Part shown: piece by piece, positions 3,454-25,290 of the stretch
Position numbering within the stretch: the stretch's first letter is position 1
How the letters are laid out: the number at the start of each line of letters is the position of its first letter
Assembly: GCA_964581145.1 (NCBI GenBank)
Contig: CAZONU010000004.1
Location: forward strand, 1-32,463
Direction of reading: 5' to 3'
From: an uncultured Planctomycetia bacterium
GTDB taxonomy: Bacteria > Planctomycetota > SZUA-567 > JAKLDR01
Length of the DNA stretch: 32,463 bases
Program-made: the position numbers and the translations under genes
The notes under the pieces: generated by a model
The model's input: the letters and a program-made list of their open reading frames with translations, nothing else
The model's database searches: none
Told to the model about the DNA's origin: nothing

Positions 3454-3493
3454 GTGCGTTCTCCCTTTCCAGACGGGTTTCCGGCGGGAGGAG

Positions 3494-3521: not shown

Positions 3522-4089
3522 CGATGACCCGGGCGACCCGGGCGCCCAGCGCGGCGCAGCCGGGCTCGGTGAAGTGCACCCCGTCGGGGGTCATCATGCC
3601 CTCCGGGCCGCGCTCCTTGACGAGCGAGTAGAGGTCGTCGACGGCCAGGCCCGCTTCCCGGACGGCCTCCAGCGCGGCGGCGTTGTAGGCCTCTACGTCA
3701 GAGTTCTCCCGGGGGAACTCCCTGCTCATGTTCGGCGCGCCGTCAATGACCGGGGTGGTCGTCGCCCAGATGACCCGCGCGCCGGTCTCCTTGAGCTTGG
3801 CGGCCAGCAGGCGCATGTTCTGGGCGTAGTCGGCCGGCGGCACCTGGTACGCGCCCTTCTCGGCCCAGAAGCGCAGGTCATGAAGGCCGGCGTTGGCGTG
3901 GATGACGTCGGGCCTCTCGCCCAGGGCGGCGAGCCACTCGCTCAACCTGGAAAGTACGTTGTGCGTGTCCCCGCCGTTGCCCTCGTGGCGGGCGAGGCGC
4001 GCGCGGCCGGCCAGCTTCTTCGCAACGACCGGCGTGTAACCCATCGAGATGGAATCGCCGATGATGAACACCAGGGGCAGGCCGCTCAC
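3502..4089 (-). CDS. SGNH/GDSL hydrolase family protein
   Basis: IGDSISMGY block I, NAGLHD block III, DGVHF block V; GTG start with AGGGAG RBS. Confidence 0.9.
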   Translation of the reverse strand: MSGLPLVFIIGDSISMGYTPVVAKKLAGRARLARHEGNGGDTHNVLSRLSEWLAALGERPDVIHANAGLHDLRFWAEKGAYQVPPADYAQNMRLLAAKLKETGARVIWATTTPVIDGAPNMSREFPRENSDVEAYNAAALEAVREAGLAVDDLYSLVKERGPEGMMTPDGVHFTEPGCAALGARVARVIVDTLGG

Positions 4090-4113
4090 CGAGTTCTCCC
4101 TTCAGGAAACGGG

Positions 4114-4142
4114 AGCATAGCGCGCCGAAGGCGGACAATCAA
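4114..4142 (-). promoter_or_regulatory. sigma70-type promoter TTGATT-N17-TATGCT for the SGNH gene
   Basis: -35 at 4142-4137, -10 at 4119-4114. Confidence 0.5.
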
Positions 4143-4167
4143 GCGCCCCGGACGGGGTCCGGGGCGC
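4143..4167 (-). terminator. GC-rich hairpin closing the regulator/giant protein/C25 operon
   Basis: 11-bp perfect stem GCGCCCCGGAC/GTCCGGGGCGC with a 3-nt loop, followed on the minus strand by TTGATTGT, ~30 nt after the C25 stop. Confidence 0.6.
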
Positions 4168-4194
4168 GGGGTGGTCAATGGAAGCCGGCGGCGG

Positions 4195-6330
4195 TCACCT
4201 GAGCGCCGGGTCTCCTAACAGGTTAAAACTGCGCAGCACGTCCTCGTGGGCGAGCGGCAGGCGCCGCTTGGCGAGCATCAGCGCGCGGCCCAGGGAGGCC
4301 TTGCGGTCCTCCTTGATTATTTTGGCGATCTCCCGGCCGAGGATGAGCTGGCCCTCCGGGGCGCTCATCCCCGAGGGCGCCACCAGCGCGGCGACGCCCT
4401 TGCCGGGCTCCTTGAGGAGCCTCTCGGCCAGCGAGTCGCTGCCGGTCGTGAAGTTGAAGTGGCCGGCCAGGCAGGCCAGGATCACGCCGGCGGGCAGCTC
4501 TTCGGCACAGAGCGCGGGCACGTCCGCAGCGCGGAGCTCCGTGCCCTTGCCCAGGTAGCCCGTGGCCGCGTGGCCGTAGAAGACGAAGTAGCGCGGCTTC
4601 TTGGCCCAGCCGGCGATGATCTCCGCCCGGACCGCGGCGCTGGTGCCGTAGTCCGAAAAGAGCACCAGGTCGGTCCCGCCCCAGGCGAAGAGGCCGGCGA
4701 TCTCCCGGGCGCCCTCCTCGAAGATGGCCTGGTCGTCGTCGCCGACCACCAGCGCGGCCTGGGAGCCGCCGTACTGGTCGGCGCTGGCCAGCCGCGCGGC
4801 GACCTTGTCGACCATGGCCCCGGCCTCCGCGGCGCTGCGCGCCGGCAGGCGCCCCACGGCCACCTCGGGGTACTCATCGCCGCCGCGGATGCAGCCGAAG
4901 AGGTTGTCGCTGGCCTCCTCGAAGTGCGGGCCCTGGGCCAGGAAGCTGGGCACGAGACCCGCGCCCGGCGCTCCCAGCCGGCCGCGCATGTCCGCGCTGG
5001 CGTCGCCCAGCAGGCAGAGGTACTCGGGCCGGTGATGGCGGGCCAGGGCGCGAATGGCCCCGGGAATCTCCTGGCCGCAGCCGAAGGCGTCGTAGACGGC
5101 ATTGGCGGCGTAGAGGCGCGCGCGGCCGCGCCGGCCGCCGTGGAGGCGGGCCAGGCGCGCGGCGGCTTCGATGTAATCGGCGTGGCTGACCACGAGATAA
5201 CGATGCCCGCCGGTCCGTCGCGCGTCCCAGGGGTCGGCGGCGCGCCCCGAGCTGGCCGAGAGCCGCCCGCCGGGCCCGGCCAGCGCGTAGCTGCGCCGGC
5301 CGGCGGAGCCCGTCACCCACTCGGCGACCCAGGAACCGCCCTGCGGCTTGACGTCGAGCTTCATGAGCTGGGGGCGCGCCGGGTCGGTGACGTCCAGGCC
5401 CACGATGTCGGGGCCGCTGAAGCCGCCGACGGCCACGCGTTGACTCGCGTCCGCGGAAAGCGTCGCGTTGAGGCGGTCGCCGCGCGCAGCCAGCCCGCGC
5501 GGATAGGAGACCTCAATCCAGTCGGCGCACACGAAATCGAAGGTCACCCCGGGGAGCGCCCCCGCGGTGAGCTTCACGGTGTTGGCGCCCTCGACGGCCA
5601 GGCCCGCGGGCAGATCGAAGCTCCCCTCCAGGCGCGCGTTGCCGTTCCAGACCATGGTGCCCACCAGCCGGCCGTTGAAGCGCACCTCCACGCTGTGGTC
5701 CGGGTTTACTCCGGCGACGTCGAAGCAGCCGCGCAGCGCGACCTTGAGCCGCACCGGGCCGGGGGCCAGCGGGCCAGCGAGCTCGGCGGTCAGCTCCAGA
5801 GAGCGGCCGGGCATCAGGAACGTGGAGTAGAACCAGTGCTCCTCGCCGGGCTGGGCGCCGGCCATGCCGCTCATGTAGAACTGGTCTTCCTCGACGTGCA
5901 CGGCCTCAATGTAGCCGGTCGGCCCGTCGGTGACCCTTTTCCCTCCCCTGCCCCGGCGGCGGAAGCGGCTGTAGCGATCGAAGCCCTTCCCGCTCCGGCC
6001 GGCGCGCAGGGGCAGGCTGCCGCCCTTGTAGGGCAGCGCCCGGTTGGATATCAGAAAGGCGCGCTCGGCGGCGTAGAGGCTGTTGTAGGGGGCGGAATAG
6101 GCCTCGATGCTGTCTTTGGTTCGCACGTAGTCGATGCCCCGCCCGCCGGTATAGACGTAGACCCGCCCGCGGCCCAGGCCCCAGGAGGCCAGCTCGGCGT
6201 TCGTGATTCGGAGCACGCCCTCGCCGGGCGCGGTCAGCCGGCGCGCGGAGGGCGCTCCCGCGCGGGCCGAGGCCAGCGGGACAATTGCCGCCAGCAGCGC
6301 GAGCGCCAAAAGTCTGGTTGGCTTTATCAT
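4195..6330 (-). CDS. secreted C25 family (gingipain/PorU-like) cysteine peptidase
   Basis: Signal peptide MIKPTRLLALALLAAIVPLASARA. Motifs VYDAF, YLCLLGDA, SDNLF, PEVAVGRLPARS, catalytic His in VFYGHA and Cys in ILACLAG, terminal FNLLGDPAL. The ATG overlaps the upstream stop (ATGA). Confidence 0.88.
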   Translation of the reverse strand: MIKPTRLLALALLAAIVPLASARAGAPSARRLTAPGEGVLRITNAELASWGLGRGRVYVYTGGRGIDYVRTKDSIEAYSAPYNSLYAAERAFLISNRALPYKGGSLPLRAGRSGKGFDRYSRFRRRGRGGKRVTDGPTGYIEAVHVEEDQFYMSGMAGAQPGEEHWFYSTFLMPGRSLELTAELAGPLAPGPVRLKVALRGCFDVAGVNPDHSVEVRFNGRLVGTMVWNGNARLEGSFDLPAGLAVEGANTVKLTAGALPGVTFDFVCADWIEVSYPRGLAARGDRLNATLSADASQRVAVGGFSGPDIVGLDVTDPARPQLMKLDVKPQGGSWVAEWVTGSAGRRSYALAGPGGRLSASSGRAADPWDARRTGGHRYLVVSHADYIEAAARLARLHGGRRGRARLYAANAVYDAFGCGQEIPGAIRALARHHRPEYLCLLGDASADMRGRLGAPGAGLVPSFLAQGPHFEEASDNLFGCIRGGDEYPEVAVGRLPARSAAEAGAMVDKVAARLASADQYGGSQAALVVGDDDQAIFEEGAREIAGLFAWGGTDLVLFSDYGTSAAVRAEIIAGWAKKPRYFVFYGHAATGYLGKGTELRAADVPALCAEELPAGVILACLAGHFNFTTGSDSLAERLLKEPGKGVAALVAPSGMSAPEGQLILGREIAKIIKEDRKASLGRALMLAKRRLPLAHEDVLRSFNLLGDPALR

Positions 6331-9300
6331 TGGGACTCTCCTTCGCGGCGCGCCGGTGCGACCTTCCCACGGCGTCCGCAGGCTTCAATTTCCTCGATGA
6401 GATACTCGTATGTCCCCGGAGGCGCCTTGTCGCGATGGCGATAGCACTGCCCGCCGGGCTCCCCGCCGGGGGCGCGGACCGGAACTCTGTCCACCTCGCG
6501 CCAGGCGCCGGTGAATTTCTCGAAGCGCTCTCCGCGCGGCGCCGCGCCGCCGGCTTCCTCCTCGATCAGCCCGCCGTGGCGCTCGACCCGGCGGCGCAGC
6601 ACGCGGTAGCCGGCGGTGCCCCGCTCGCCCGCGGCGCTCCAGGTGACCAGCGTCCCGCGCGCCGTTCTCTGAACGCGGGCCTCCAGGCCCTCCGCGGCGG
6701 TCGGGGCCCAGGTGATCGTTCCGGAGGTTTCCATGTCGGTAGCGTCTCCGGAGAGCCAGCCGGCGCCGGAGCCGTATTGGCTGAGGGTCACCGTGCCCCC
6801 GGTGGTGATCTCCACCGCCCGGGTCTTGGTGCCGCCGACGTCGCTGAACCCCATCCCGTAGAAGTTGTGCCCGTTCCAAGCCGCGCCGGTGACTCGCAGG
6901 TAAGGCGTGGCTCCCGCGGCCCCGTCGTAGAAGAGCACGTTGTCAAACACCGTTGTAGTGGAACTCGCCGACAAAGTCAGGCCACCGGAGTTGAGATCAT
7001 AGAAGCGGGCGAAGCGCAGGTCCACGTTGCCGGCCAAGGTCATCGCGTAAGTGCCGCTCGAAGCCTCAACTGTGGCGTAACCGCCGGCCAGCTGGCTGGT
7101 GCCGGCGACTTTGAAGGTGCTGCCGGTACCGGTGGAAAAAGTCGTGTCGGCGCCCAGGCGCAGGGTGGAGTTGCCCTGGAGCTCCATGGTCCCGCTGACC
7201 GTCACGTTCCCATAGCAGGTGAGCAGCTTGCCGGGTTCCACCTTGACCGAGGAGTTCGCGGCGACGGTCAGCACTTTGGCATCGCCGTTGGCGGAGACGA
7301 TCGGCTTGGTGCCCACGTTGGGAACGGTGACATCTATCGAAGGTCCCGGTCCCACGGCCTCGTTGTAGTTGCCCGGCAGGTTGAAGTCGGCGTTGACCGA
7401 GCCGTTCCAGGTGATGGCGGTGACCGACGCGATGGTCTTGAGCCCGCCGGAAACCGGCGCGCCCGAGGGCGTCAGCGGGCCGCCGGTGTTCACGTCGGTC
7501 ACGGTCACATCGGAGTTGTTGAGCAGGCTGACCTTGAAGGTCTCGTTGCCGCTGGCCGCGCCGTTCAGGTCGTAAACCACGATCCAGTTGACCGACGAAC
7601 TCGCGTTAATGCGTTCGGCCGCGAAGTTGAAGGTGAAGTACCCGTCGTTGGCGGGCGGGGCCACCGTGTCAATAGTTGGGTCATCACCGGCATTGTAGAC
7701 GCCGTCGCCGTTGTCCCTCGCCAGGAGTATTGGGTTGGAGATGTCCGTATTGTCGTTGCCGGTGCCGCTGGCCTTGAACCGGATGGAGGTCACGTCCACC
7801 GCGCCGGAGGCCCCGGCGGTGAGCTTGACCTGGATCATGGAAACGTCCTGCTCGTTGTCCTGTACGTAGCTGTCACCGGGGTTGCTGGCGCCGGCGGCCA
7901 GGGTCAGGCTGCTGACCTGGTTGACGGTCAGCGTCCCGCCGGGGACCGGCGCGCCGATCTTGCTGGCGGGCTGCCCGCTGGAGACGCCGGTGGCGGTCAC
8001 GTCCGCGTTGGCGTTCAGCTTCTCGATCAGCGTGCGCCCCAGCGTGGCGCCGCCGGCCATATCGAAAACCAGGATGAACTTGACGTTGCCCCCGGCCGGG
8101 ACGGTGACCGGGAATTCGTCGTCGCCGCTGAAGCTCATGGTGCCGCCGCCGAAGCTGGCCAGGGTGCTGCCCAGCTGCACGTCGGGCCCGCTCAGGACGC
8201 CGTTGCCGTCCACGTCCTTGTAGAGCTCGATGGAAACGACGTCCGCGTCCAGAGCGGAGCCCGAGTGGGTCAGGTCGATCTGGGATATCTCGACGTCCTC
8301 GACGCCGTTGGCGGCGGCCTGAAGCTGCAGAGTGACCACGTCGAGCTGGCCCTGGGCGATGTTGCCGTCGGCAGGATTGGCCGGCCCCGCCGTGAAGGTC
8401 AGCGTGCCGGTGCTGTTTACGGTCAAGACGTTGGAGACCACCGGAGCGCCGCTGACCGAGGCGGCCCCGGCGGTGATGCTGTTGTTGGAGGCCAGCTGGG
8501 CCTGGAAGGTCTCTCCGCCCGAGGCGGTCCCGGGGTCCTTGAAGTCGTAGACCAGCAGCCAGCTCTCGGTCTGCCCGGCGTTGATGACCTCGCTGAGCCC
8601 GCTGAGGGTGATCAATCCATTGTCGCCGCTGTAGGTGCCCGAGCTTATGGAGGGATCGGTGCCCGCGTCGTACTGGCCGTTGGAGTTCACGTCGTTGTAG
8701 AGGTGGACAGTCTGGAGGTCGGTCGAGTCGTGGCCGGTGCCCGAGGCATCGAACTTGATCTCTGTGACGGTAACATCAGCCAACGCCCCGGCGGTGAGCT
8801 TGAGCTGCAGGACTTCTTCTTTCTGGGCGTTGGCGGGTATGCCCTTGGCCGGGGGCATCTGCAGGCCCGCAGCCACGGTCAGCGTCGAAGTCTGCAGCGT
8901 TATGGTGCTGGATTCCTGAAGCACCGGGCCGTTGTAGAGGTTGGCCTCTGCGTTGGGGTTGTCCACGGTGACGTCGCTGGGGATGTCGTTGTAGTCCGAG
9001 GGGTCCAGGAGGGCAAGCTTTATGGTTTCTCCAGCCGAGCCCGTCCCGGAGAGGTCCAGGACGAACAGGAAGGTCTGCTCCTCCCCCGCGGGGATCTGGT
9101 ACCCACCGCTAATCTGAATGCGACAGCCGTTGGGGTCGGTGGCGGGCGGCGGTGCGGGGTTGTAGGTGTTGAATGTCCCGTTGGCGATTTCGAAGTCGCC
9201 GCCGTTCACGGTGCCGTCCCCGTCTACGTCCCGATAGAAGCGCACGGCGGTCACGTCCGTCGATCCGGTGATGGTGCCGCTGTTCCAGATCACTAGATCG

Positions 9301-11018
9301 CTGATGGTCGCGTTGCGGCCGGTGGGGGCCCGGATCCGGGTCTGCATGACCACGATCCCGGTATCCGCCGGGGTGTGCGTGGTCGGTCCGGGGTCATTGC
9401 CGCCCTTGGAGAAGGTCACCGCCGCGGCGTCCATGTTGACCACCACGTCGTTGAGTATGTCGATGCGGGTGCCGCCGATGGGGAATGTGCCCGTGGCGGG
9501 CACGGGACTTCCGTCTGAGGAGGCCTCGGCGGTCACATGACCGGCTTGGGCCAGCCGGACCATCATGCCCTCCTGGTCGGTCCCCGTGCCCGAAAGGTCA
9601 ATTACGGCAATGAAGTTGACCGTGCTGCCGGCCTGGAGCGCGCGGTACTCGTTGTCCAGCAGGTTGAAGGTGATAGTGGTGTCCTGACCGCCGGGAACCC
9701 AGGTCACAGTGTTCCCCACCTGCGGATCGGTAGCCGCGTCCAATTCTCCGTCGCCGTCGTTGTCCCGGTACAGCCGGATATCGACGACGTCCCCGGCCTC
9801 GAACTCGTTGGCCGCCGGACCGACGTAAGTGCAGGTGAGAGTCAGGCTGGTGAGATCGACGTCCCCTCCCACCAGCCCGGCATTGCAGGCCAACTGCAGC
9901 AGCGTCTTGTCCTGGCCGCCTGCACCGACTATCTGGTAGGTGACATCGGGGTTGTTGTCGCCCAGGGCCACGCCCAGCGACGGGCTGTTGGAGATGGTGG
10001 TGGTGTTGCTGCCGACCGCGGGGCCCACAATCGGCGGCGACCCGGTAGCGGTCACGCCACCGGGCACGATGCTCAGAGAGTAAGTGTCCCCCACCGTCGC
10101 GCTCGAGAAGTTGTAGACCACGACGAAGTGGCCCTTGGAACCCCCGCTGATGACCGAGCTGAAACCGCTGAAACTTAGCGTGGCTCCAGGGCTGTTGATG
10201 GTGGCCAGCAGCGAGTCGCCGCCGAGCTGCAGCTTGCCGTCGGCGTTGTTGTCGCGGTACAGCCTGGCGCTGGACACGTTGCTCATCGCGCCGGCCGTGC
10301 CGGTGTGCGTAAAGGTCAGCGCGGTGACAGTGTAGCTGCCTGCCCGCACGCCCGCCTCGATTTCCAGTTGGTTTAGGACGACGTCGCTCTGGTCCGTACC
10401 AGCGGTCTGGGTAGGCGCGGTCTTGGGGCCGAGCGCGATCTTCAGGTCGCCGATAGCGATGGCGTGGTTGAAGCTTTCGCCGTCCCCTCCCGGGGGGGTA
10501 GGGTCCTCCTGGTTGTCACCCAGGCCGTAGTCGATGACGTAGCTGCCGGGCGTCTCGCCGGCGGGTATGGTGATGGTTCCCGTTATAGTTACTAATTCGG
10601 CGGTTTCGATGTCGATGAGGCCGGTGGTCCCACCCCACCAGTAGGTGCTGGCCCCCGAGCCCCAGTAACCCTCCGCGTCGCCGGCCTTGCCGGCGGCGTA
10701 GTTAACCTCCCCGGCCAGCCGGCGGCTCTGGCTGGTGAAGTCCATGGAGTTGTTCTTGACGCCCCAATTGTTGCGCATCCGGATGTACACGAAGCCCTCG
10801 GCGCCTAAGGCAACGCCGGGCATGTTCGCATAGATGGTCACAGGAATCTCGCCGCCGGGGACGCCATACGCCGGCTGATTGATGCCCCTGTCGGCCAGAG
10901 TGGTCTCGAACTGCAGACAGCCGACCGCGGCCAGCAAGCCGACCAAGAGTGCCAGGCGCGGGGCGATGAACCACCGCCCGCGGGCGCCCGACGGATTTCC
11001 CAGGCGTTGCTTTGTCAC
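6327..11018 (-). CDS. giant secreted repeat protein B (~1563 aa): six ~165-aa beta-sandwich-like repeats with Dx[DN]x[DN]G loops, one beta-helical module, and the shared C-terminal PTA domain
   Basis: GTG11018 after GAGGGGGA; signal or lipoprotein-like leader RLALLVGLLAAVGC; repeat cores LYRDNNADG, LYRDNDGDG, FYRDVDGDG, LYNDVNSNG, LYKDVDGNG, LARDNGDG. Confidence 0.85.
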   Translation of the reverse strand: MTKQRLGNPSGARGRWFIAPRLALLVGLLAAVGCLQFETTLADRGINQPAYGVPGGEIPVTIYANMPGVALGAEGFVYIRMRNNWGVKNNSMDFTSQSRRLAGEVNYAAGKAGDAEGYWGSGASTYWWGGTTGLIDIETAELVTITGTITIPAGETPGSYVIDYGLGDNQEDPTPPGGDGESFNHAIAIGDLKIALGPKTAPTQTAGTDQSDVVLNQLEIEAGVRAGSYTVTALTFTHTGTAGAMSNVSSARLYRDNNADGKLQLGGDSLLATINSPGATLSFSGFSSVISGGSKGHFVVVYNFSSATVGDTYSLSIVPGGVTATGSPPIVGPAVGSNTTTISNSPSLGVALGDNNPDVTYQIVGAGGQDKTLLQLACNAGLVGGDVDLTSLTLTCTYVGPAANEFEAGDVVDIRLYRDNDGDGELDAATDPQVGNTVTWVPGGQDTTITFNLLDNEYRALQAGSTVNFIAVIDLSGTGTDQEGMMVRLAQAGHVTAEASSDGSPVPATGTFPIGGTRIDILNDVVVNMDAAAVTFSKGGNDPGPTTHTPADTGIVVMQTRIRAPTGRNATISDLVIWNSGTITGSTDVTAVRFYRDVDGDGTVNGGDFEIANGTFNTYNPAPPPATDPNGCRIQISGGYQIPAGEEQTFLFVLDLSGTGSAGETIKLALLDPSDYNDIPSDVTVDNPNAEANLYNGPVLQESSTITLQTSTLTVAAGLQMPPAKGIPANAQKEEVLQLKLTAGALADVTVTEIKFDASGTGHDSTDLQTVHLYNDVNSNGQYDAGTDPSISSGTYSGDNGLITLSGLSEVINAGQTESWLLVYDFKDPGTASGGETFQAQLASNNSITAGAASVSGAPVVSNVLTVNSTGTLTFTAGPANPADGNIAQGQLDVVTLQLQAAANGVEDVEISQIDLTHSGSALDADVVSIELYKDVDGNGVLSGPDVQLGSTLASFGGGTMSFSGDDEFPVTVPAGGNVKFILVFDMAGGATLGRTLIEKLNANADVTATGVSSGQPASKIGAPVPGGTLTVNQVSSLTLAAGASNPGDSYVQDNEQDVSMIQVKLTAGASGAVDVTSIRFKASGTGNDNTDISNPILLARDNGDGVYNAGDDPTIDTVAPPANDGYFTFNFAAERINASSSVNWIVVYDLNGAASGNETFKVSLLNNSDVTVTDVNTGGPLTPSGAPVSGGLKTIASVTAITWNGSVNADFNLPGNYNEAVGPGPSIDVTVPNVGTKPIVSANGDAKVLTVAANSSVKVEPGKLLTCYGNVTVSGTMELQGNSTLRLGADTTFSTGTGSTFKVAGTSQLAGGYATVEASSGTYAMTLAGNVDLRFARFYDLNSGGLTLSASSTTTVFDNVLFYDGAAGATPYLRVTGAAWNGHNFYGMGFSDVGGTKTRAVEITTGGTVTLSQYGSGAGWLSGDATDMETSGTITWAPTAAEGLEARVQRTARGTLVTWSAAGERGTAGYRVLRRRVERHGGLIEEEAGGAAPRGERFEKFTGAWREVDRVPVRAPGGEPGGQCYRHRDKAPPGTYEYLIEEIEACGRRGKVAPARREGESQ
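6576..6944. repeat. 369-bp exact direct repeat, copy 1 (copy 2 at 11273-11641)
   Basis: Base-by-base comparison at offset 4697; diverged homology extends to ~6385 and ~7200. Confidence 0.93.
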
Positions 11019-11032
11019 GCTTCCCCCTCGAC

Positions 11033-14000
11033 TCAGAAGCCCCTGACGGCCCGGACGCGGCGCCCGGGCCTGCCGCTGCCTTCCACTTCCTCGATCAGGT
11101 ACTCGCACTTGCCCGGCGAGGTCTTGTCGTGGAAGCGGTAGCGCTGCCCGCCGGGCTCCCCGCCGGGGGCGCGGACCGGGACTCTGTCCACCTCGCACCA
11201 GGCGCCCCGGAACTTCTCAATGCGCTCTCCGCGCGGCGCCGCACCGGCGGCTTCCTCCTCGAGCAGCCCGCTGTGGCGCTCGACCCGGCGGCGCAGCACG
11301 CGGTAGCCGGCGGTGCCCCGCTCGCCCGCGGCGCTCCAGGTGACCAGCGTCCCGCGCGCCGTTCTCTGAACGCGGGCCTCCAGGCCCTCCGCGGCGGTCG
11401 GGGCCCAGGTGATCGTTCCGGAGGTTTCCATGTCGGTAGCGTCTCCGGAGAGCCAGCCGGCGCCGGAGCCGTATTGGCTGAGGGTCACCGTGCCCCCGGT
11501 GGTGATCTCCACCGCCCGGGTCTTGGTGCCGCCGACGTCGCTGAACCCCATCCCGTAGAAGTTGTGCCCGTTCCAAGCCGCGCCGGTGACTCGCAGGTAA
11601 GGCGTGGCTCCCGCGGCCCCGTCGTAGAAGAGCACGTTGTCGAATATCGTGGTGGTGGAAGCGGCCGAGAGCGTGACCCCGTTGGAGTTCAGGTCGTAGA
11701 ATCGCGCGAAGGTTACGTCCACGTTGCCGGCCAGGGTCATCGAGTAAGCGCCGCTGACAGCCTCAATGGTCGCGTAGCCCCCGGCCTGCTGACTGGTCCC
11801 CGAGACCGTGAATGTGCTGCCCGTGTTAGCGGTGAACGTGGTGCCGCTGGCCATGCGCAGCTTGCTGTTGGTGCTCAGCACCAGGGTCCCGCTGAGGGTC
11901 GTGCTGGTGCTGAGCGAGAGAATCTTGCCCGAACTCACCGTGACCTGCGACCCGGCGGCCACGGAGAGGACGTTGCTGACCGTGATGTTCGTGTTCAGCG
12001 TCACCGTGCTGCTGTTGGTTACCGTCAGGTTGTAGAGGGTCGGGATCACCGTGCCGGCAATCGCCTGCGACGCGCCGGCATTGAGCGTTACCAGTCCGCC
12101 GCTGGCGATCACGGACTCGTTGCTGGTCCAGTCGCCAGTGCTGCGCAGTTCGCCGCTCGAAAGGGTCAGGGTGGCGCCGCTGCTCACCGTGATGCTGCCG
12201 GCAACGGTCAGGAGGTCCGTGCCCGCATCTATGATCAGCGTTCCGCCGCTGCCCACCTCCAGGGTCTGACACTGGGCGGTAGCCACGTTGACGTTACAGG
12301 GGTTCGCAGCGGTGCCTATGAAGACGTTGTCGGTGGCAATGGGAACCGAGTTGCCGGACCAGTTGGTCGGCTCGCTCCAGTTGGAGTTGGTGCTGCCGTC
12401 CCATATTTTCTGGTTCTCCCACTTGATAGTGGTGCCAGGATCGTTGTCGTAACCTTCACCGGCCTTTGCGCCGGTGGCCCCGATCATGACGATCTTGTCA
12501 GCCTGGACGATGGCAGCCGCCACGTTGTACTGGCAGTTGCTGTCGAAGTCGCAGCCGGCGAAAGAGTAGGTGGTCGTGCTCGTGTCCTGCACCCGCAGGT
12601 AGGTGCCGGTGGAGAGCCCGTTGTTACAGTCCAGGTTGTCGATATCGACGATGGTCGCACCGTCATTGATGGTCAGGCCGTCGGCATTGGGGTAGTTCAG
12701 GTTGAGGGCGTCGATTTCGATGGTCCCGTTGACCGTGAACGCGTAGCGCGTCGAGCCGTTCCAGGTCACGGTGGGCGTGAGCCCCAGAGCGGTGAACTTG
12801 CCGTTGGTGCCTCCGGAATCGACGCTCAGCGAGGCGCCCAGCGCGATCGTGCTGCTACCGTTCATGTAGAGTTCCCCGCCGGCCTTGACTGCCGCGGATC
12901 CGGAAGCGTTGAGGGTTCCCCCGGCGTTGACCTCCAGCTTTCCGTAAATGTCCGTGGTCCCGGTCACGAAACAGGAACCGGTGCCCAGGTCCAGGGTGCC
13001 GGAGGTGAGGGTAAGGTTGCCGTTAAGCACGATATTGCCGCCGAGCAGCGCCTCTTTGCCGCTCTTGTTGATCTCCAGGTGATTGAACGTCTCTGCGGGA
13101 ATCGTCTGGTCGGCGGTGGTCGAATAGAAGCTGACAGTTCCCGCGTTGGCGTTGAACGTTCCGGAGCGCAGCCAGGAACCTCCCGCCTTCAACGTGGTGG
13201 TGGCGCTGGACATGGTCAGCGTTCCCCCGGAACTCACCGTCACGTTGCCGGAGACGGTCAAGGTCGTGGAGGCCGTGGACATGGTCAGCAGGCCGCCGCT
13301 CTGGATGGTTAAGGTTGCGCACTGCCCGTTTACATTGAGAACCGGGTCGTTTGTCGCGCTGGGAATGATGACCGCGTCGGAGGCCTCCGGGACCGTTCCC
13401 TTGTCCCAGTTCTCCGCTACGTTCCAGAGGGTCGGGTTGGTTGCGTCGTCTCCCTGCCAGATGTGGGCGTCGGTCCAGGTTATGTTGGCGTCGACCGTTC
13501 CGTCGTAGTCCTCGGGGTCGGTGGTTCCCTTTCCCTCGGTGGCGCTGACCATGGCTATGCTGGCCCCGTTGGGGGCCACCACGTTCCAGTTGTGATTGGC
13601 GTCGAAGCTATGGCCGGTGAGGTTGTACGAACCGGAGGCGTGCCCGATCCAGAGGTAGCGTGAGGCCGCCCCGTTCTGTCCGTTGGTGTAGGTCACGCTG
13701 TCCAGGGCCTGGATGGTCGCGGTGTTCTGGATGGTCAGGCCATTGTCGTTGGGACGGTTGACCGTCAAGCCGTCGGCGTTGATGGTCCCGTCGATGTTTA
13801 TCCCGAAATAACTGCCGGCGCCGGTGGAGGCCAGCGTACCTCCCGAGCAGGTAATGACGCCGTCCACGTCCAGGGCCCCGCCGTTCGCGAAGGTCAGGGT
13901 GGACGAGCCCAGCGCGAGAGTCCCGGCGAACACGTTGAACTGGTTGTTGACGGTGACTCCCGCGGCCAGGGTTACCGTGCTGCCGTTGACGTCGATGTTG

Positions 14001-17000
14001 TAGTAGTTGCCGGGGTTGGGGATAGTCTGGGTGGTGCCGTTGAACTCCACGGTGCCGGCGCCGGCCGTGAAGGTGCCGGTGCTGGTGAAAGTGTTCTTGG
14101 CCTTGATTCGCCCGGTGTCGAGGTCCAGCGTACCGGAGTTGGTGACGTTGCCCTCCACCGTGATGGTGAACGCTCCCAGGTTCAGCGATGCGGTGTTGTT
14201 GATGATCAGGTTGTTCTTGACGGTGACGTCCGCGGTCAAGGTGCAGGCGCCGTCGATGGTCAGGTTGTAGTAGGTCACCGCCGGCACGTTGGCCGTGCCC
14301 TTCAGCACCACGGTGGAGGTGCCGTAGTTGAAAGTGGTTGGCGCCGCCGTCCAGGAGCCAGTGGTTGTCAGCGTCGTGCCGGTGCCGGCGTTTATCGTGG
14401 CGCCGGTGGGGTTGAAGGTACCCAGGGCGGTGACGCTGTCACCGTTGGTGATGGTCATGATCCCGGAGACGGTCAGGTTGTCGAAGGTCTCGGTCCCCGC
14501 GCTGCCGGTGGCCTTGTCGACGATGGTGGTCCCGTTGAAGATAAGCGTCCCGCTGGTGGTGCCGCTCTGCAGCGTGAAGGTTCCGTCGTTGGTCCAGTTG
14601 CCGCCTACGGTTAGGGAGTCCTCGTTGTTGAGATTGACGGTTCCCCCGCTCTGAATCCTGAAGTACTCGCCAACTGTCAGGGCGTTGCCGGCGCCCGTTA
14701 CGTACAGCACCCCGCTCGACGTGCCGTCGATCACGATGCCCTTGCATGTTGCGCCGGCCACGTTAACGTAGCATTGCCGGTTGGACGTTGGCGGGCCGAT
14801 GATGCGAACGTAATCAGCGGCGGTGGGCACTCCGGTGGGCGACCAGTTGCCGGTGACGTTCCACTTGTCCCGGTTGCTCGGGGGTCCTCCGGAGGCCCCC
14901 TGCCAGCTCTTTTCGTCGTACCAGTTGATATGGTTGCCGGTGTCGTCGTCGTTGGCCTCTCCGTTGGTCGCCCCGCCGAAGGCACCGCTGGTGCCCACCA
15001 TGTTGAGGGTGATCCCGCTGGCCGCGGGTACGTAGACGTTGTTCTGTACTGTGTTGTCCAGGACGCAGCCCGAGGAGAAATACACGGTGGTGCCCAGGTC
15101 CAGAACGCGCAGGTGGCGGCCGGTGGCGGCCACACCGTTGGTGAAGTTGATGTTGTCTATGGCGGTTATCAGCGCGCCGTCGTTGACCGTCAGGCCGCTG
15201 GCGTCGTAGTAGCTCATGTTCAGGGCGGTGACGTTGATCGCCCCGCTGACGGCGAAGGCGTATCGGTTGGCCCCGTCCCAGGTGACCGTGGGAGTGGAAC
15301 CGGCGGCGATGAACGTACCGTCAATGGCGCCGTCGTCCACCGCCAGCCCGTTGGTCGAGAGCCGCAGGAAGCAGGCCCCGTTCATGTTCAACTCGCCGCC
15401 GGCCTTGACCGTCACCTTGCCGCTGCAGGTGATGTCGCTGCCGGCTACCAGCATCAGCTTGCCGAAGACGTCCGTGGTGCTTGATACTGTGTGAGTGTAA
15501 TTGCCCAGGTTAAAGGTGCCGAGGGTGACCGTCAAGTTGCCGTTAATCGTGAGCGCGCCGGTGGCCGTGGCCGTCAGAGCTTCGAGCTTGTCAATTTCCA
15601 GGTTGTTGAAGGTCTCAACCGGTACGTCTTGGTCCACGGCCTGACTGTGGAACACCACGGTGCCGGCAGAGGCGGTGAACGTGCCGCTGTTGTCCCATAT
15701 CCCGCCGCACTTGAAGACCGTGCCGCTGGCGGTCATGGACAGTGTGCCGCCCAGGTCGATCTGCAGACGGCCGCCCATTTTGCGGCCGCGGATCTCCAGT
15801 GTCTTGTTGGCCACCGACATGCTCACGGTGGCGCCGTTCTGGATGGTGAGCGTGTAGCACTCGGCGTCCACGTCCACCGTGGGCTGGTTGGCCACGTTGG
15901 GAATGGTTATCACCGCGTCGCCGGAAGGCACCACCCCCGTGTTCCAGTTCTCGGCTACGGACCAGAGAGTGGGGCTGGTGGCGTCATCCCCTTGCCAGGT
16001 AATGGGGTTCGCCCACGTGATGTTGGCGTCTATTGCCCCGTCGTTGGCCTCGCCGTTGGTTACCCCGCCCTTGGCCCCCGATGAGTCGATCATGGCCACC
16101 TTGATGCCGCTGGGCGCGGTAACGTTCACGTTGCAGTTGGCGTCTATGACGTGTCCCACGAACGAAACCGCCCCCGAGCCCTGGCCCATGTAGAGGTAGC
16201 GGCTGGAAGCTCCGTTCTGTCCCGAGGCGTAGGTGATATTGTCCAGGCGGGTCACCGTCGCTCCCGATGAGATGGTCACGCCGTTGTCATCGGGGCGGGT
16301 GACGCTCATGGACCCGATATTGACGGTGCCATTGAAGGTGATGCCGAAGTAGGCCCCGGCTCCCGAGGAAGTCAGCGTTCCCCCGCCGCTTTCGATCGTG
16401 CCGTTCACGGTAATGGACGCGCCGCTGGCAAAGGTCATGGTGAAGTTCGACAGCCTGATCTTGCCCGTGCTGTCCACCACGAAGGTGTTGTTGACGACGG
16501 TGCTGCTGTCCGCCAGGGTCGCCGTGGAACCGGTTACCTGGAGGTCGTAGTAGCTGACGCCGGTAATGTTCTGCGTCGTACCGTTGTAGTTGAACGTGCC
16601 CGTGCCGCGGTTGTAGGTGCCCGATGTGAAGGAGCCCTTGAGGTTCACCGTGCCGGTGTTGTTGTTGAGCGTGCCGCCGGTGGTGTCCAGGTTGCCCTCG
16701 ACGGACAGGACGCCGCCGCCCACGCTGAGCGTTCCCGAGATGGTGGCGTTGCCCTTGACCGTGAGTGTGTAGCCGTTGAGATTCAGCGTGCCGCTGACCG
16801 TCAGGTCGTTGTCGACTGTCACGTTGCTGGTCAGGGTGTGCGTGCCCGAGACGATCACATTCCAGAAGTTGCCGCTGCCGGTGCCGCCCGAGCCGTCGTG
16901 GTCGATGTTGCCGGAGTTGTTGAAGTTGACCGTGCCCGAGTCCCCGCCGCCGATGTTGTAGCTGAAGCTGCCGTTGTTGTTCCAGTTGCCGCCGACGTAG

Positions 17001-17371
17001 AGTATGCAGGTGCCCCCGCTGCCGACTACGATGGTGCCCCCGCTGTTGACGGTCACGTTCCCGCTGACGGTGAGGTCGACGAGGTTTTGGATGGCTCTCA
17101 GGCTCATCGCGTTCTGGACGGTGAGCACGGCGCAGGCCCGGTCAGCGCCGTCAATCAGACAGATGCCTCCAGCTTCGGTGGCAATCGTAACCGTATCGCC
17201 AGCGACAGGGCCACCGTTGCCGGACATCGGCGTCCAGTTCTGCTTCTTGCTCCAGTTGTCGTTGTTACTGCCGTCCCAAGTATAACTTGCACCCAGCGCC
17301 GACCCGGAGATCAGCGCAAGCGCCAGCGCGCACGTTGCGGCTCGCCAGAGCCTAGCGGCTCCTCTGCCCAT
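11033..17371 (-). CDS. giant secreted beta-helical adhesin-like protein A (~2112 aa): five W-x-G...NW modules plus the shared C-terminal PTA domain
   Basis: ATG17371 after GGAGG; signal peptide ending ...ISGSALG|ASYTWDG; G/T/N/S-rich beta-strand repeats; no transmembrane anchor or barrel at the C-terminus. Confidence 0.87.
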   Translation of the reverse strand: MGRGAARLWRAATCALALALISGSALGASYTWDGSNNDNWSKKQNWTPMSGNGGPVAGDTVTIATEAGGICLIDGADRACAVLTVQNAMSLRAIQNLVDLTVSGNVTVNSGGTIVVGSGGTCILYVGGNWNNNGSFSYNIGGGDSGTVNFNNSGNIDHDGSGGTGSGNFWNVIVSGTHTLTSNVTVDNDLTVSGTLNLNGYTLTVKGNATISGTLSVGGGVLSVEGNLDTTGGTLNNNTGTVNLKGSFTSGTYNRGTGTFNYNGTTQNITGVSYYDLQVTGSTATLADSSTVVNNTFVVDSTGKIRLSNFTMTFASGASITVNGTIESGGGTLTSSGAGAYFGITFNGTVNIGSMSVTRPDDNGVTISSGATVTRLDNITYASGQNGASSRYLYMGQGSGAVSFVGHVIDANCNVNVTAPSGIKVAMIDSSGAKGGVTNGEANDGAIDANITWANPITWQGDDATSPTLWSVAENWNTGVVPSGDAVITIPNVANQPTVDVDAECYTLTIQNGATVSMSVANKTLEIRGRKMGGRLQIDLGGTLSMTASGTVFKCGGIWDNSGTFTASAGTVVFHSQAVDQDVPVETFNNLEIDKLEALTATATGALTINGNLTVTLGTFNLGNYTHTVSSTTDVFGKLMLVAGSDITCSGKVTVKAGGELNMNGACFLRLSTNGLAVDDGAIDGTFIAAGSTPTVTWDGANRYAFAVSGAINVTALNMSYYDASGLTVNDGALITAIDNINFTNGVAATGRHLRVLDLGTTVYFSSGCVLDNTVQNNVYVPAASGITLNMVGTSGAFGGATNGEANDDDTGNHINWYDEKSWQGASGGPPSNRDKWNVTGNWSPTGVPTAADYVRIIGPPTSNRQCYVNVAGATCKGIVIDGTSSGVLYVTGAGNALTVGEYFRIQSGGTVNLNNEDSLTVGGNWTNDGTFTLQSGTTSGTLIFNGTTIVDKATGSAGTETFDNLTVSGIMTITNGDSVTALGTFNPTGATINAGTGTTLTTTGSWTAAPTTFNYGTSTVVLKGTANVPAVTYYNLTIDGACTLTADVTVKNNLIINNTASLNLGAFTITVEGNVTNSGTLDLDTGRIKAKNTFTSTGTFTAGAGTVEFNGTTQTIPNPGNYYNIDVNGSTVTLAAGVTVNNQFNVFAGTLALGSSTLTFANGGALDVDGVITCSGGTLASTGAGSYFGINIDGTINADGLTVNRPNDNGLTIQNTATIQALDSVTYTNGQNGAASRYLWIGHASGSYNLTGHSFDANHNWNVVAPNGASIAMVSATEGKGTTDPEDYDGTVDANITWTDAHIWQGDDATNPTLWNVAENWDKGTVPEASDAVIIPSATNDPVLNVNGQCATLTIQSGGLLTMSTASTTLTVSGNVTVSSGGTLTMSSATTTLKAGGSWLRSGTFNANAGTVSFYSTTADQTIPAETFNHLEINKSGKEALLGGNIVLNGNLTLTSGTLDLGTGSCFVTGTTDIYGKLEVNAGGTLNASGSAAVKAGGELYMNGSSTIALGASLSVDSGGTNGKFTALGLTPTVTWNGSTRYAFTVNGTIEIDALNLNYPNADGLTINDGATIVDIDNLDCNNGLSTGTYLRVQDTSTTTYSFAGCDFDSNCQYNVAAAIVQADKIVMIGATGAKAGEGYDNDPGTTIKWENQKIWDGSTNSNWSEPTNWSGNSVPIATDNVFIGTAANPCNVNVATAQCQTLEVGSGGTLIIDAGTDLLTVAGSITVSSGATLTLSSGELRSTGDWTSNESVIASGGLVTLNAGASQAIAGTVIPTLYNLTVTNSSTVTLNTNITVSNVLSVAAGSQVTVSSGKILSLSTSTTLSGTLVLSTNSKLRMASGTTFTANTGSTFTVSGTSQQAGGYATIEAVSGAYSMTLAGNVDVTFARFYDLNSNGVTLSAASTTTIFDNVLFYDGAAGATPYLRVTGAAWNGHNFYGMGFSDVGGTKTRAVEITTGGTVTLSQYGSGAGWLSGDATDMETSGTITWAPTAAEGLEARVQRTARGTLVTWSAAGERGTAGYRVLRRRVERHSGLLEEEAAGAAPRGERIEKFRGAWCEVDRVPVRAPGGEPGGQRYRFHDKTSPGKCEYLIEEVEGSGRPGRRVRAVRGF
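11273..11641. repeat. 369-bp exact direct repeat, copy 2
   Basis: Identical to 6576-6944; encodes DNVLFYDGAAGATPYL...TITWAPTAAEGLEARV...RRRVERH in both giant proteins. Confidence 0.93.
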
Positions 17372-17443
17372 AGCGGTGCCTCCCTGCACCCGGTCGGGCA
17401 TGGTCGTCCCCCCGTACCGACCCATCACCTTACCTCATCATTA

Positions 17444-18100
17444 TCAATCGGCCGTTTTGGCCGAGTCCTTAACCTTCACAGCACCGACCGCCGGTTTCGG
17501 ACGGCTCTTGAAGAGCTTCTTGATCTTGCTCCGGAAGACGCTTAAATCAAAGGGCTTAGCGAGATGGTCGTCGGCTCCGGCCTCGAAGATCTCCTCTACG
17601 CTCTTCTCGTCGCGCAGGGCGGTTACGGCCATGATTTTGGCGCCCGCCAGCCGGGCGTCGGCCCGCATCCGCCGGCAGGCCTCGCGGCCGTCCACCCCGG
17701 GGAGCAGGATGTCCAGGATCACCAGGTCGGGCAGGAAGGAGCTGGCCAGGAAGCCGGCGTCGAAACCGTTGCGGGCCACCTGCACCTCCCAGCCGTCGCC
17801 GGTGAGCAGCTTCTCCATGAGATTAGCCATGCGCCGCTCGTCCTCGACCACCAGGGCGCGGCGCCCGGCGGGCGGCGCCTCCTGGGGCGCGGCCAGATCC
17901 GGCAGCGGAATCCCGTGTTTGCGGGCGAATTCGACTAGATGCTTTTTCGGTATGCGCCGGAATCGGGAGCCGGGCACCTTGTAGCCTTCCAGGTCGCCGG
18001 CGTCGAAGCGGCGGATTATGGTCATGTGACTCAGGCCGCAGAGGCGCGCGGCCTCCAGGGTGCTGAACCAGTCGTGTTCCTTTCTCCGGCGCCTGCCCAC
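17444..18100 (-). CDS. response regulator with N-terminal excisionase-type HTH (HTH_17) and C-terminal receiver domain
   Basis: FSTLEAARLCGLSHMTIIRRFDAGDLEGYKVPGSRFRRIP; receiver motifs LVVEDE, LVILDILLPGVDG, KPF; GTG18100 lies 8 nt after GGAGG. Confidence 0.9.
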   Translation of the reverse strand: MGRRRRKEHDWFSTLEAARLCGLSHMTIIRRFDAGDLEGYKVPGSRFRRIPKKHLVEFARKHGIPLPDLAAPQEAPPAGRRALVVEDERRMANLMEKLLTGDGWEVQVARNGFDAGFLASSFLPDLVILDILLPGVDGREACRRMRADARLAGAKIMAVTALRDEKSVEEIFEAGADDHLAKPFDLSVFRSKIKKLFKSRPKPAVGAVKVKDSAKTAD

Positions 18101-18161
18101 TAGCCACACCTCCGCATCACTCTAGTACTAACCCCCTCCAGAGGGGAAACCTTCCACTAAT

Positions 18162-18190
18162 ATTATACAAGTTAACACGCTGATTGTCAA
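18162..18190 (-). promoter_or_regulatory. perfect consensus sigma70 promoter TTGACA-N17-TATAAT
   Basis: -35 at 18190-18185 and -10 at 18167-18162, in an AT-rich patch ~60 nt upstream of the regulator. Confidence 0.85.
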
Positions 18191-18306
18191 GCATCAAATG
18201 CAAGACCAAAGGGGCTAAAATGCAGGGGGGCTATGTAGCTGTTTATCAGCCGCTTACGGTTTCGCGAGCTGAAGACGCCGCAGCACGGCCAGAATCGCCT
18301 CCTGGC

Positions 18307-18704: not shown

Positions 18705-18721
18705 AGTTACCTCCCGGAGCC

Positions 18722-25283: not shown

Positions 25284-25290
25284 CCCCGTC

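What the first reader, a model, noticed from the sequence alone, without database searches (positions are those of the whole stretch)
4143..18190. Candidate undescribed protein-sorting system: stand-alone gingipain/PorU-like C25 peptidase co-transcribed with two giant cargo proteins that share a C-terminal domain
Seen: one unit of promoter, regulator, protein A, protein B, C25 peptidase and hairpin, with B and C25 coupled by ATGA. A and B have unrelated bodies yet both end in ITW-APTAAEGLEA...LVTWSAAGE.GTAGYRVLRR...GGQ.Y...DK...EYLIEE.E..G plus a basic tail, with no transmembrane helix. The peptidase has a signal peptide and intact His (YGH) and Cys (LAC), and stops right after its catalytic domain. 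Known: PorU, a C25 enzyme, removes C-terminal domains and conjugates cargo to A-LPS in Bacteroidota T9SS, and a similar 'PVEL/PTAV..F.A' Ig/FN3-like module often precedes T9SS tails. Inference: this C25 acts in trans as a dedicated sortase, maturase or cross-linker on the PTA domain in a lineage without canonical T9SS.
Basis: partly seen in the sequence, partly recalled or inferred. Interest (0 to 1): 0.9.

Follow-up and report, generated by a model that had tools for sequence, protein, structure and literature searches.

The report
Split giant-protein / C25 peptidase cassette
Two giant secreted proteins of a marine-sediment planctomycete end in the same module, which looks like the partner domain of the PorU-like cysteine peptidase encoded next to them, so this may be a protein-processing or docking system that works without type IX secretion.

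Summary
On the minus strand lie a consensus promoter, an HTH_17-REC response regulator, giant protein A, giant protein B, a 711-aa C25 peptidase overlapping B by ATGA, and a hairpin. A and B share about 330 C-terminal residues, not 125, including a 369-nt identical core.

The link between tail and peptidase is well supported:
- The tail-bearing gene sits directly upstream in 4 of 4 stand-alone C25 orthologue loci of at least 61% identity that have upstream sequence.
- In 5 genomes and 7 protein clusters, a tail-like domain and a complete C25 unit lie in one polypeptide. One of these is B's own orthologue.
- All 8 of 401 phylum genomes with the tail also have a C25 relative.
- One genome has six dispersed tail-bearing giants and one C25 orthologue.
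- A complex model passes its controls (0.75 against 0.04). It puts a conserved GGEP loop, not the W-A-P-T-A motif, at the rim of the His587/Cys620 site.
- Four T9SS markers were not found.

So this is a split form of 'giant passenger, FN3-like domain, C25' proteins. Nothing here shows cleavage, sortase action or anchoring, and stable docking is a serious rival. I rate it a new variant of a known kind, with moderately high interest.

The parts
18162..18190 (-). Sigma-70-type promoter-like site, TTGACA-17-TATAAT, upstream of the regulator gene
   Evidence: 12 of 12 consensus positions. Five such sites were found in 3400-18800, against a mean of 1.5 in shuffles.
17444..18109 (-). Response regulator with an N-terminal HTH_17 domain and a C-terminal receiver domain. 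The true start may be later than 18109.
   Evidence: PF12728 at 1.4e-6 and PF00072 at 4.6e-22. Orthologues sit upstream of the cargo gene in L003 (77%), L015 (60%) and L019 (49%).
11033..17428 (-). Giant protein A (2131 aa at the longest start; probable start about 17371). It has a Sec-type signal peptide and a body of repeated beta-helix-like units, and ends in the shared ~330-aa module.
   Evidence: (G8 domain, 2e-7). Its N-terminus aligns with that of P0008.
11036..12025 (-). C-terminal module of A: about 200 aa of beta-helix end-piece followed by an FN3-like tail of about 125 aa with an Arg/Glu-rich insert and a basic end.
   Evidence: model pLDDT 68; weak FN3 and beta-helix plus FN3 matches. 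No Pfam or NCBIfam family matches.
6327..11018 (-). Giant protein B (1563 aa from the GTG at 11018). It has a lipobox-like signal peptide (...AVGC) and a body of Ig-like repeats with Asp/Asn/Gly-rich loops, and ends in the shared module.
   Evidence: (P0007). The body is 59% identical over 1233 aa to the fused protein of L019.
6330..7319 (-). C-terminal module of B. The 369 nt at 6576-6944 are identical to 11273-11641 in A.
4195..6330 (-). PorU-like C25 cysteine peptidase (711 aa). Layout: signal peptide, small N-terminal domain, Arg-rich linker, two beta-sandwich domains, then the catalytic domain with H587 and C620. It has no C-terminal domain.
   Evidence: pLDDT 80; 6za2 PorU, E 5.7e-23.
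4143..4167 (-). GC-rich hairpin of 11 pairs after the C25 stop codon; terminator-like.

Best explanation
The region is a self-contained cassette: promoter, HTH_17-REC regulator, giant protein A, giant probable lipoprotein B, PorU-like C25 peptidase, terminator. It is the split form of a family of single-chain giant secreted proteins in which a beta-helix end-piece and an FN3-like domain are followed by a complete C25 unit.

The ~330-aa module shared by A and B is the cognate partner domain of the peptidase. After Sec export, the FN3-like tail is gripped between the first beta-sandwich of the peptidase (loops 151-157 and 202-206) and the rim of its His587/Cys620 site.

I think the most likely consequence is that the peptidase cuts at or near the tail. 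That would be C-terminal processing or maturation of the giant proteins, as PorU does to CTDs, acting in trans here and in cis in the fused relatives.

Shown: the anatomy, the coupling of tail and C25, the fusions, the intact catalytic dyad, and the failure to find four T9SS markers. Inferred: binding (from a model only). More weakly inferred: cleavage. Transfer to a surface acceptor (true sortase action) is not addressed by any result.

My odds: tail and C25 are physical partners, about 0.75. The partnership ends in cleavage, about 0.4 overall.
For: (1) Adjacency. The gene directly upstream of the C25 orthologue ends in the tail in the window, L003 (85% identity), L014 (68%) and L015 (61%). 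That is 4 of 4 stand-alone orthologue loci of at least 61% identity that have upstream sequence.

(2) Fusion.
- L019 encodes one 2352-aa frame made of a B-like body (59% identity), the module, a Pro-rich linker and a C25 unit.
- Of 114 representatives hit by the tail profile, 7 also carry the C25 unit after the tail-like domain.
- Five genomes of the same class (G272, G287, G332, G070, G158) have tail and C25 in one frame.

(3) Co-occurrence. The tail occurs in 8 of 401 phylum genomes and C25 relatives in 47 of 401. All 8 tail genomes have C25.

(4) One enzyme, many tails. G359 has six giant frames ending in the module, on five contigs, and one C25 orthologue elsewhere. The window has two tails and one C25.

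(5) Concerted evolution. A and B share a 369-nt identical core between unrelated bodies.

(6) Complex model. ipSAE 0.75 (runs 0.75, 0.78, 0.72) against a best control of 0.04. That mark was reached by 58 of 80 solved complexes and 2 of 110 mismatched pairs. The runs agree in at least 77% of contacts, and partner pLDDT is at least 73. The interface includes peptidase residues 589-597 and 621-631, next to H587 and C620, and the tail loop 86-93. Loops 151-156 and 204-206, which had pLDDT below 50 in the monomer model, lie in the interface.

(7) PorU-likeness. The best solved fold is PorU 6za2 (E 5.7e-23), ahead of RgpB and Kgp. The NCBIfam PorU model matches residues 165-711.

(8) The catalytic GH and C are kept in 17 of 17 split and fused forms inspected.

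(9) The tail ends within 24 residues of the C-terminus in 14 of the 20 representatives whose match spans more than 80 profile positions.
Against: - No result shows cleavage.
- Fusion to the C-terminus of the would-be substrate fits a permanently attached enzyme head as well as it fits cis-processing.
- B and its fused orthologue have lipobox-like N-termini, so at least B may need no C-terminal anchoring.
- G003, which has a 54% C25 orthologue with Ig/cadherin extensions, showed no tail at E <= 1e-5. The peptidase therefore does not always need this partner.
- The predicted interface loops of the peptidase are also conserved in that tail-less orthologue.
- Interface residues of the tail are only modestly more conserved than the rest: 10 of 24 against 29 of 106, p = 0.13.
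- The model may have learned the contact from fused homologues. It used my own shallow alignments of 17 and 6 rows, so its calibration holds only roughly.
- Five of the 8 co-occurring genomes are fusions, and all 8 are kin, so the 8 of 8 is not eight independent events.
- The genome is a 77%-complete MAG.
Confidence: 0.4

Rival explanations
1. Stable docking or display. The tail is a docking module, cohesin-dockerin-like in logic, that holds the C25 peptidase non-covalently at the distal end of giant stalks. The result matches the single-chain relatives, where the peptidase is the C-terminal head of the stalk. The peptidase acts on external substrates or is kept latent by the tail loop, and the tail is not cut.
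For: - Fused forms are frequent. In 19 of 19 longer relatives the C25 unit lies at the C-terminal end, and in 15 of 19 it ends within 20 residues of the terminus.
- B's orthologue is a lipobox-bearing stalk with a covalently attached C25.
- Orthologues without tails carry their own Ig, cadherin or InlB-repeat extensions, which is an effector-like build.
- Gene fission usually preserves an existing domain interface.
- The complex model passes its controls.
- From recall: the beta-sandwich prodomain of RgpB blocks its active site with a loop. A loop at the rim of the active site is what the model shows here.
Against: - Six stalks for one head in G359, and two for one here, is an odd ratio for display.
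- Binding at the active-site rim would block an enzyme meant to work on other substrates.
- The fold is closer to the processing enzyme PorU than to the effector gingipains.
Confidence: 0.3
2. Full sortase reading. The C25 removes the tail and transfers the new C-terminus of A and B to a cell-surface acceptor, forming a T9SS-independent attachment system. Fused relatives would be self-sorting proteins.
For: - Everything listed for the best explanation applies here too.
- PorU is both a signal peptidase and a sortase-type transpeptidase (passages of PMC11285876).
- Many tails to one enzyme in G359.
- T9SS markers were not found.
Against: - No acceptor, no PorZ/PorV/PorQ-like partner and no outer-membrane translocon was identified. 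The flanks of the cassette are not conserved even within the genus.
- B looks N-terminally lipid-anchored already.
- A single-turnover sortase fused to its substrate would be unusual.
Confidence: 0.15
3. No direct interplay. The shared module is only the conserved end-piece inherited when a 'passenger plus C25' gene split. The peptidase is a secreted nutritional protease, and adjacency is a historical leftover.
For: - The fission history is clear.
- G003 keeps the peptidase without tails.
- The excess conservation of the interface is not significant.
Against: - The module is kept nearly identical between A and B by gene conversion.
- It has multiplied to six copies in G359 while staying terminal.
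- It carries motifs conserved only in the split forms, at the junction and in the GGEP loop.
- The complex model scores 0.75 against 0.04 for the controls.
Confidence: 0.15

Closest known systems
[quoted passage not shown]
   Same: - C25 catalytic domain with aligned His and Cys, preceded by beta-sandwich domains.
- Best solved-structure match is 6za2, E 5.7e-23.
- Its clients are Sec-exported proteins with a beta-sandwich domain at the extreme C-terminus. T9SS CTDs are Ig-like 3+4 sandwiches of 67-88 residues (passages of PMC11285876).
   Different: - It scores 112 bits against the NCBIfam PorU cut-off of 420.
- It has no CTD of its own.
- The genome and three relatives lack SprA_N, GldM, cut-off-level GldK and Por_Secre_tail, all of which are present in a Bacteroidales control.
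- The partner module is about 330 aa (beta-helix end-piece plus FN3-like domain with an insert) and matches no CTD model.
- Single-chain fusions of partner domain and peptidase exist.
Gingipains RgpA/RgpB/Kgp (C25)
   Same: - C25 catalytic fold (4ief, 1cvr, 4rbm at E 1e-12 to 1e-15).
- The peptidase is physically tied to large adhesin-like regions.
- From recall: a beta-sandwich prodomain places a loop in the active site of RgpB, which resembles the modelled position of the tail loop.
   Different: - The domain order is reversed: passenger, FN3-like domain, C25, rather than prodomain, C25, adhesins, CTD.
- No T9SS CTD is present.
- Overall similarity is lower than to PorU.
Dedicated sorting-enzyme and C-terminal-tag pairs (exosortase/PEP-CTERM, archaeosortase/PGF-CTERM, rhombosortase/GlyGly-CTERM, sortase/LPXTG); recalled, not tested
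   Same: One processing enzyme is paired with a lineage-restricted C-terminal signature carried by several secreted proteins in a genome. Here G359 has six tails and one C25 orthologue.
   Different: Those tags are short motifs followed by a membrane helix, and the enzymes belong to other families. Here the tag is a folded module of about 330 aa with no helix, and the enzyme is a clan CD C25 peptidase.
Cohesin-dockerin assembly of cellulosomes; recalled, an analogy for the docking rival only
   Same: A terminal module on a large scaffold would recruit a separately secreted enzyme.
   Different: There is no sequence or fold relation, and here several scaffolds would share one enzyme.

Membership tests
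Peptidase family C25 (MEROPS C25 / Pfam PF01364) | Matches the family model above its curated cut-off | tested here: met
   147.2 bits against a cut-off of 23, covering residues 378-711.
Peptidase family C25 (MEROPS C25 / Pfam PF01364) | Catalytic His and Cys are present and aligned with those of solved members | tested here: met
   H587 and C620 are invariant in 17 orthologues. They align with the G-H and C stretches of PorU and RgpB and are kept in 17 of 17 split and fused forms.
PorU (T9SS sortase, NCBIfam NF033707) | Scores above the equivalog cut-off | tested here: not met
   112.1 bits against a cut-off of 420. Only model positions 160-731 of 1095 are matched.
PorU (T9SS sortase, NCBIfam NF033707) | The host genome encodes the T9SS core (SprA/Sov, GldK/PorK, GldM/PorM) and CTD-bearing cargo | tested here: not met
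   SprA_N, GldM and Por_Secre_tail were found in 0 of 4 genomes (G000-G003). GldK gave only partial matches below its cut-off. All four markers were found in the Bacteroidales control G004. G000 is 77% complete.
PorU (T9SS sortase, NCBIfam NF033707) | Carries its own uncleaved T9SS C-terminal domain | tested here: not met
   The protein ends with the catalytic domain at residue 711.
PorU (T9SS sortase, NCBIfam NF033707) | Removes C-terminal domains and transfers cargo to a glycolipid | not testable with these tools
   This needs biochemistry or proteomics.
T9SS C-terminal domain (TIGR04183 / PF18962) for the shared tail | Matches a CTD model | tested here: not met
   No NCBIfam family matched A or B at E <= 0.01. 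No Pfam family matched the tail at E <= 10.
Fibronectin type III-like fold for the last ~125 residues | Beta-sandwich similar to solved FN3 domains | tested here: inconclusive
   The model has pLDDT 68. Foldseek gave no hit at E <= 1e-3. The best partial hits are FN3 domains (2ic2, 8omw, 1va9; probability 0.99-1.0, TM-score normalised to the target 0.46-0.59) and the insulin-receptor L1 plus FnIII region. The nearest named Atlas clusters are fn3 at 0.83-0.84, which is a lead only.

The most novel reading that the evidence does not exclude
A T9SS-independent, PorU-like sorting system in a class of Planctomycetota. A folded C-terminal module of about 330 aa marks giant surface proteins for a dedicated C25 enzyme, which removes the tail and fixes the protein to the cell surface. 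The many single-chain 'giant passenger plus C-terminal C25 unit' proteins of PVC bacteria would then be self-sorting ancestors, and this cassette would catch the change from a cis-acting to a trans-acting sortase that serves several clients.
Probability: 0.15. Interest if true: 0.85.

Novelty: new variant of a known kind. Interest (0 to 1): 0.66.

Why it matters
C25 peptidases are understood only in Bacteroidota, as gingipains and as PorU. Their many homologues at the ends of giant proteins in Planctomycetota and their relatives have no assigned role. How planctomycetes export, mature and hold their very large surface proteins is also largely unknown.

This cassette offers a small, testable pair: a 711-aa peptidase and a ~330-aa module. 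Genomic evidence for the pairing is strong, and there is a specific interface prediction. If the peptidase processes or anchors the tails, PorU-type C-terminal sorting would not be tied to the T9SS. If it docks instead, this would be a new way of mounting an enzyme on giant stalks.

The conserved signal peptide and tail around interchangeable bodies also suggest a recombination-driven way of swapping surface proteins.

Tried and rejected
- Pfam and NCBIfam on the tail alone and on A and B found no family for the tail.
- The word-based homologue search with the tail found only 2 proteins. The exhaustive profile search was needed.
- Foldseek on the module model gave no hit at E <= 1e-3.
- phmmer of the peptidase against PDB sequences found nothing. 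The profile of A1 was needed.
- The first SprA_N search had no positive control. I repeated it with a Bacteroidales genome.
- The test of whether predicted interface residues of the tail are more conserved gave a weak trend only (p = 0.13).
- I looked for correlated loss of the peptidase loops in the tail-less orthologue. The loops are kept.
- Synteny beyond the cassette: tblastx gave only short, low-identity noise outside the regulator, tail and C25 regions.
- The five fused loci of the class have no orthologue of the regulator at E <= 1e-5.
- No RNA holder was listed for the stretch, so co-transcription was not tested.
- Literature: searches for 'peptidase C25' with 'Planctomycetota' found 0 papers. 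Searches for PorU/C25/Planctomycetes and for gingipain-like/sortase/C-terminal domain/outside Bacteroidetes listed nothing on such a system. I saw listings and abstracts only. These four searches are the only basis for saying I found it nowhere in print.
- The PorU structure paper PMC8501833 is not held. What I say of PorU latency and of the RgpB prodomain loop is recalled.
- Supplementary files were not consulted.
- I rejected an assembly artefact as the whole explanation. The same architecture recurs in independent records (L003, L014, L015, L019), and a Logan contig bridges the A/B junction.
- I rejected a canonical T9SS.


Full report
ANATOMY.

The window has about 70% G+C. The feature lies on the minus strand. 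In order it holds:
- a perfect TTGACA-17-TATAAT site at 18190-18162;
- a response regulator with an HTH_17 domain and a receiver domain, 17444-18109;
- protein A, 11033-17428;
- protein B, 6327-11198 at its longest, probably starting at 11018, which gives the 1563-aa P0007;
- a 711-aa C25 peptidase, 4195-6330, whose ATG overlaps B's TGA;
- an 11-pair GC-rich hairpin at 4167-4143.

Downstream genes are ordinary metabolism: a GDSL hydrolase, a DeoC-type aldolase and a zinc dehydrogenase.

A is built of repeated beta-helix-like units, with a G8 match at 2e-7 and internal repeats. B is built of Ig-like repeats. The two bodies are unrelated.

The last 330 residues of A and B align without gaps at 77% identity, E 2e-149. 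The alignment includes 369 nt of perfect DNA identity flanked by progressively diverging sequence. That pattern is the signature of gene conversion.

The module is a beta-helix end-piece of about 200 aa followed by an FN3-like domain of about 125 aa with an Arg/Glu-rich insert. No Pfam or NCBIfam family matches it.

The one correction is that the shared region is much longer than 125 aa.

THE PEPTIDASE.

PF01364 covers residues 378-711, so the protein ends with its catalytic domain. H587 and C620 are invariant in 17 orthologues. They align with the catalytic stretches of PorU and RgpB.

The model (pLDDT 80) has a signal helix, a small N-terminal domain, a disordered Arg-rich linker, two beta-sandwiches and the catalytic domain. 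Its best solved match is latent PorU, 6za2, at E 5.7e-23, ahead of RgpB and Kgp.

It is not PorU in the strict sense:
- It scores 112 bits against a cut-off of 420.
- It has no CTD.
- SprA_N, GldM and Por_Secre_tail were found in none of G000-G003, and GldK gave only partial matches below its cut-off. All four markers were found in a Bacteroidales control genome.

G000 is only 77% complete, but the result is the same in three relatives.

IS THE TAIL TIED TO THE PEPTIDASE?

Adjacency. About 18 proteins are at least 55% identical to the peptidase, and one is labelled Planctomycetota. Among loci recovered from genome and metagenome collections, the gene directly upstream ends in the module in the window, L003 (85%), L014 (68%) and L015 (61%). 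That is 4 of 4 orthologue loci of at least 61% identity with upstream sequence. L018 is a fragment without upstream sequence. An orthologue of the regulator precedes the cargo in L003, L015 and L019.

Exceptions. The loci at 54-56% identity are L004 and L005/L016/L017, the last three being one locus type. They have no tail within 10 kb, and their peptidases carry C-terminal InlB-repeat or Ig/cadherin extensions.

Fusions. In L019 a single 2352-aa frame contains a body 59% identical to B, then the module, a Pro-rich linker and a C25 unit. An exhaustive profile search with the tail found 115 representatives at E <= 1e-3. Within that set:
- 14 carry a full-length tail ending within 24 residues of the C-terminus.
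- P0038 and P0050 are added to these by the module profile.
- 7 also carry the C25 unit after the tail-like domain.
- Many of the rest are generic multi-FN3 proteins that match only profile positions ~17-48.

Genome survey. Across 401 genomes of the phylum, the tail occurs in 8, all in one class, and C25 relatives occur in 47. All 8 tail genomes have C25.
- In five of them (G272, G287, G332, G070, G158) tail and C25 lie in one frame.
- In two (G000, G372) they are adjacent genes.
- In G359 six giant frames on five contigs end in the module, while the one orthologous C25 lies elsewhere.

These genomes are kin, and most of the cases are fusions, so 8 of 8 is not eight independent events. One orthologue-bearing genome, G003, showed no tail.

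More distant relatives. Among longer proteins with a C25 unit at 25-32% identity, the unit lies at the C-terminal end in 19 of 19, and within 20 residues of the terminus in 15 of 19. 'Giant passenger with a terminal C25 unit' is thus a common but uncharacterised build, and the window holds its split form.

BINDING MODEL.

I folded the peptidase (residues 28-711, alignment A1) with the 130-aa tail (alignment A3). The scores:
- ipSAE 0.75 (runs 0.75, 0.78, 0.72) against a best control of 0.04.
- That mark was reached by 58 of 80 solved complexes and 2 of 110 mismatched pairs.
- The runs agree in at least 77% of contacts, and partner pLDDT is at least 73.

This supports binding but does not show it.

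The interface joins peptidase loops 151-157 and 202-206, which were poorly defined in the monomer model, and residues 589-597 and 621-631 beside H587 and C620. On the tail side it involves residues 13-14, 33-40, 81-93 and 114-119. The conserved GGEP loop therefore lies at the active-site rim. The W-A-P-T-A junction, apart from E13 and G14, is not among the confident contacts.

The junction motif and the GGEP loop are conserved in the 16 split-form tails and differ in the fused forms.

Cautions:
- Interface residues are not significantly more conserved than the rest (p = 0.13).
- The peptidase loops are also kept in the tail-less orthologue.
- The model may echo contacts learned from fused homologues.

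MECHANISM.

The firm part is that the module and the C25 unit are partners by descent from one polypeptide and have stayed coupled. What the partnership does remains open.

For processing:
- the peptidase is PorU-like;
- the catalytic dyad is kept in 17 of 17 forms inspected;
- the tail is strictly terminal;
- there are several tails per enzyme;
- the modelled contact is at the active-site rim.

For docking or display:
- fusions are frequent;
- B and its fused orthologue have lipobox-like N-termini;
- tail-less orthologues have an effector-like build.

I put processing at about 0.4, of which true sortase action is about 0.15. I put stable docking at 0.3 and no direct interplay at 0.15.

OTHER POINTS.

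- Between same-genus genomes the cargo body differs entirely while the signal peptide and tail are kept. The flanks of the cassette are not syntenic. The cargo bodies have lower G+C (0.63-0.66) than the peptidase gene (0.73) and the flanks.
- Logan contigs of two of four marine-sediment runs join 6575 to 11273 through the identical core, which skips B. Another contig bridges the A/B junction. Either both forms exist in the population or the assembler took a different path at the repeat.
- No RNA run was available.

NOVELTY.

My four literature searches found no paper describing C25 peptidases in Planctomycetota or a PorU-like system outside the T9SS (listings and abstracts only). I read passages of PMC11285876 for CTD size and PorU function.

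I rate this a new variant of a known kind: a PorU-like C25 enzyme with a cognate C-terminal module, outside the T9SS and with a fission-fusion history.

Noticed in passing
L002 (G000:C86:6337-10503), minus strand: The genome holds a second, unrelated C25 protein in a 1711-aa open frame. It has an N-terminal hydrophobic segment and the C25 domain in its first half. By eye, the rest looks like beta-sandwich, propeller-like and cadherin-like regions. It has no tail module.
   Followed up: partly
L004:9959-12568 (= G359:C113), C-terminal end: The C25 orthologue of the genome with six dispersed tails has an InlB B-repeat extension. It ends in a Gly-rich stretch with a Cys, then a hydrophobic segment and an Arg-rich end. 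By recall this resembles a short C-terminal sorting signal of the MYXO-CTERM or PEP-CTERM type. If so, the peptidase itself would be membrane-tethered there.
   Followed up: no
window 10900-11018 (N-terminus of B) and P0032 (L019): B and its fused orthologue both have a hydrophobic signal region ending in small residues and then Cys (...AVGC...SAGC). That looks like a lipobox, so B is probably a lipoprotein. A has an ordinary signal peptide. The lipobox rule is recalled, not run.
   Followed up: partly
window 6575 / 11273: In Logan contigs of runs X1 and X4, one contig passes from the C25 gene and B's distal tail, through the 369-nt identical core, into A's module, skipping the 4697 nt that hold B. 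An X1 contig covering 10636-11101 bridges the A/B junction. This is either a population variant lacking B or a path choice at the repeat.
   Followed up: partly
window 4143-18190 against its flanks; L003: The cargo bodies have lower G+C (0.63-0.66) than the flanks and the C25 gene (0.70-0.73). The same-genus genome has one cargo gene with a wholly different body (P0008, with internal repeats by eye) between the same signal peptide and tail. The flanks are not syntenic. This suggests cassette-like exchange of surface-protein bodies.
   Followed up: partly
window 19389-22040 (+): An 883-aa frame combines a weak M28 peptidase match with a C-terminal aminoglycoside 3-N-acetyltransferase-family domain (PF02522, 5e-41). 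This is an unusual fusion.
   Followed up: no
L008:4357-5175 (+), Ardenticatenaceae MAG: A 273-aa frame with a weak, two-piece match to the tail profile (E about 2e-4 on a small database) lies just upstream of two C25 genes at 5405-8533 and 9578-11656. This hints that FN3-like partners of C25 units may exist outside Planctomycetota.
   Followed up: no
window 22051-24975 (-), 25254-27473 (+), 28105-29847 (-): Three long open frames (974, 739 and 580 aa) have no Pfam match at E <= 1e-3. In DNA this G+C-rich, some of them may not be genes.
   Followed up: no
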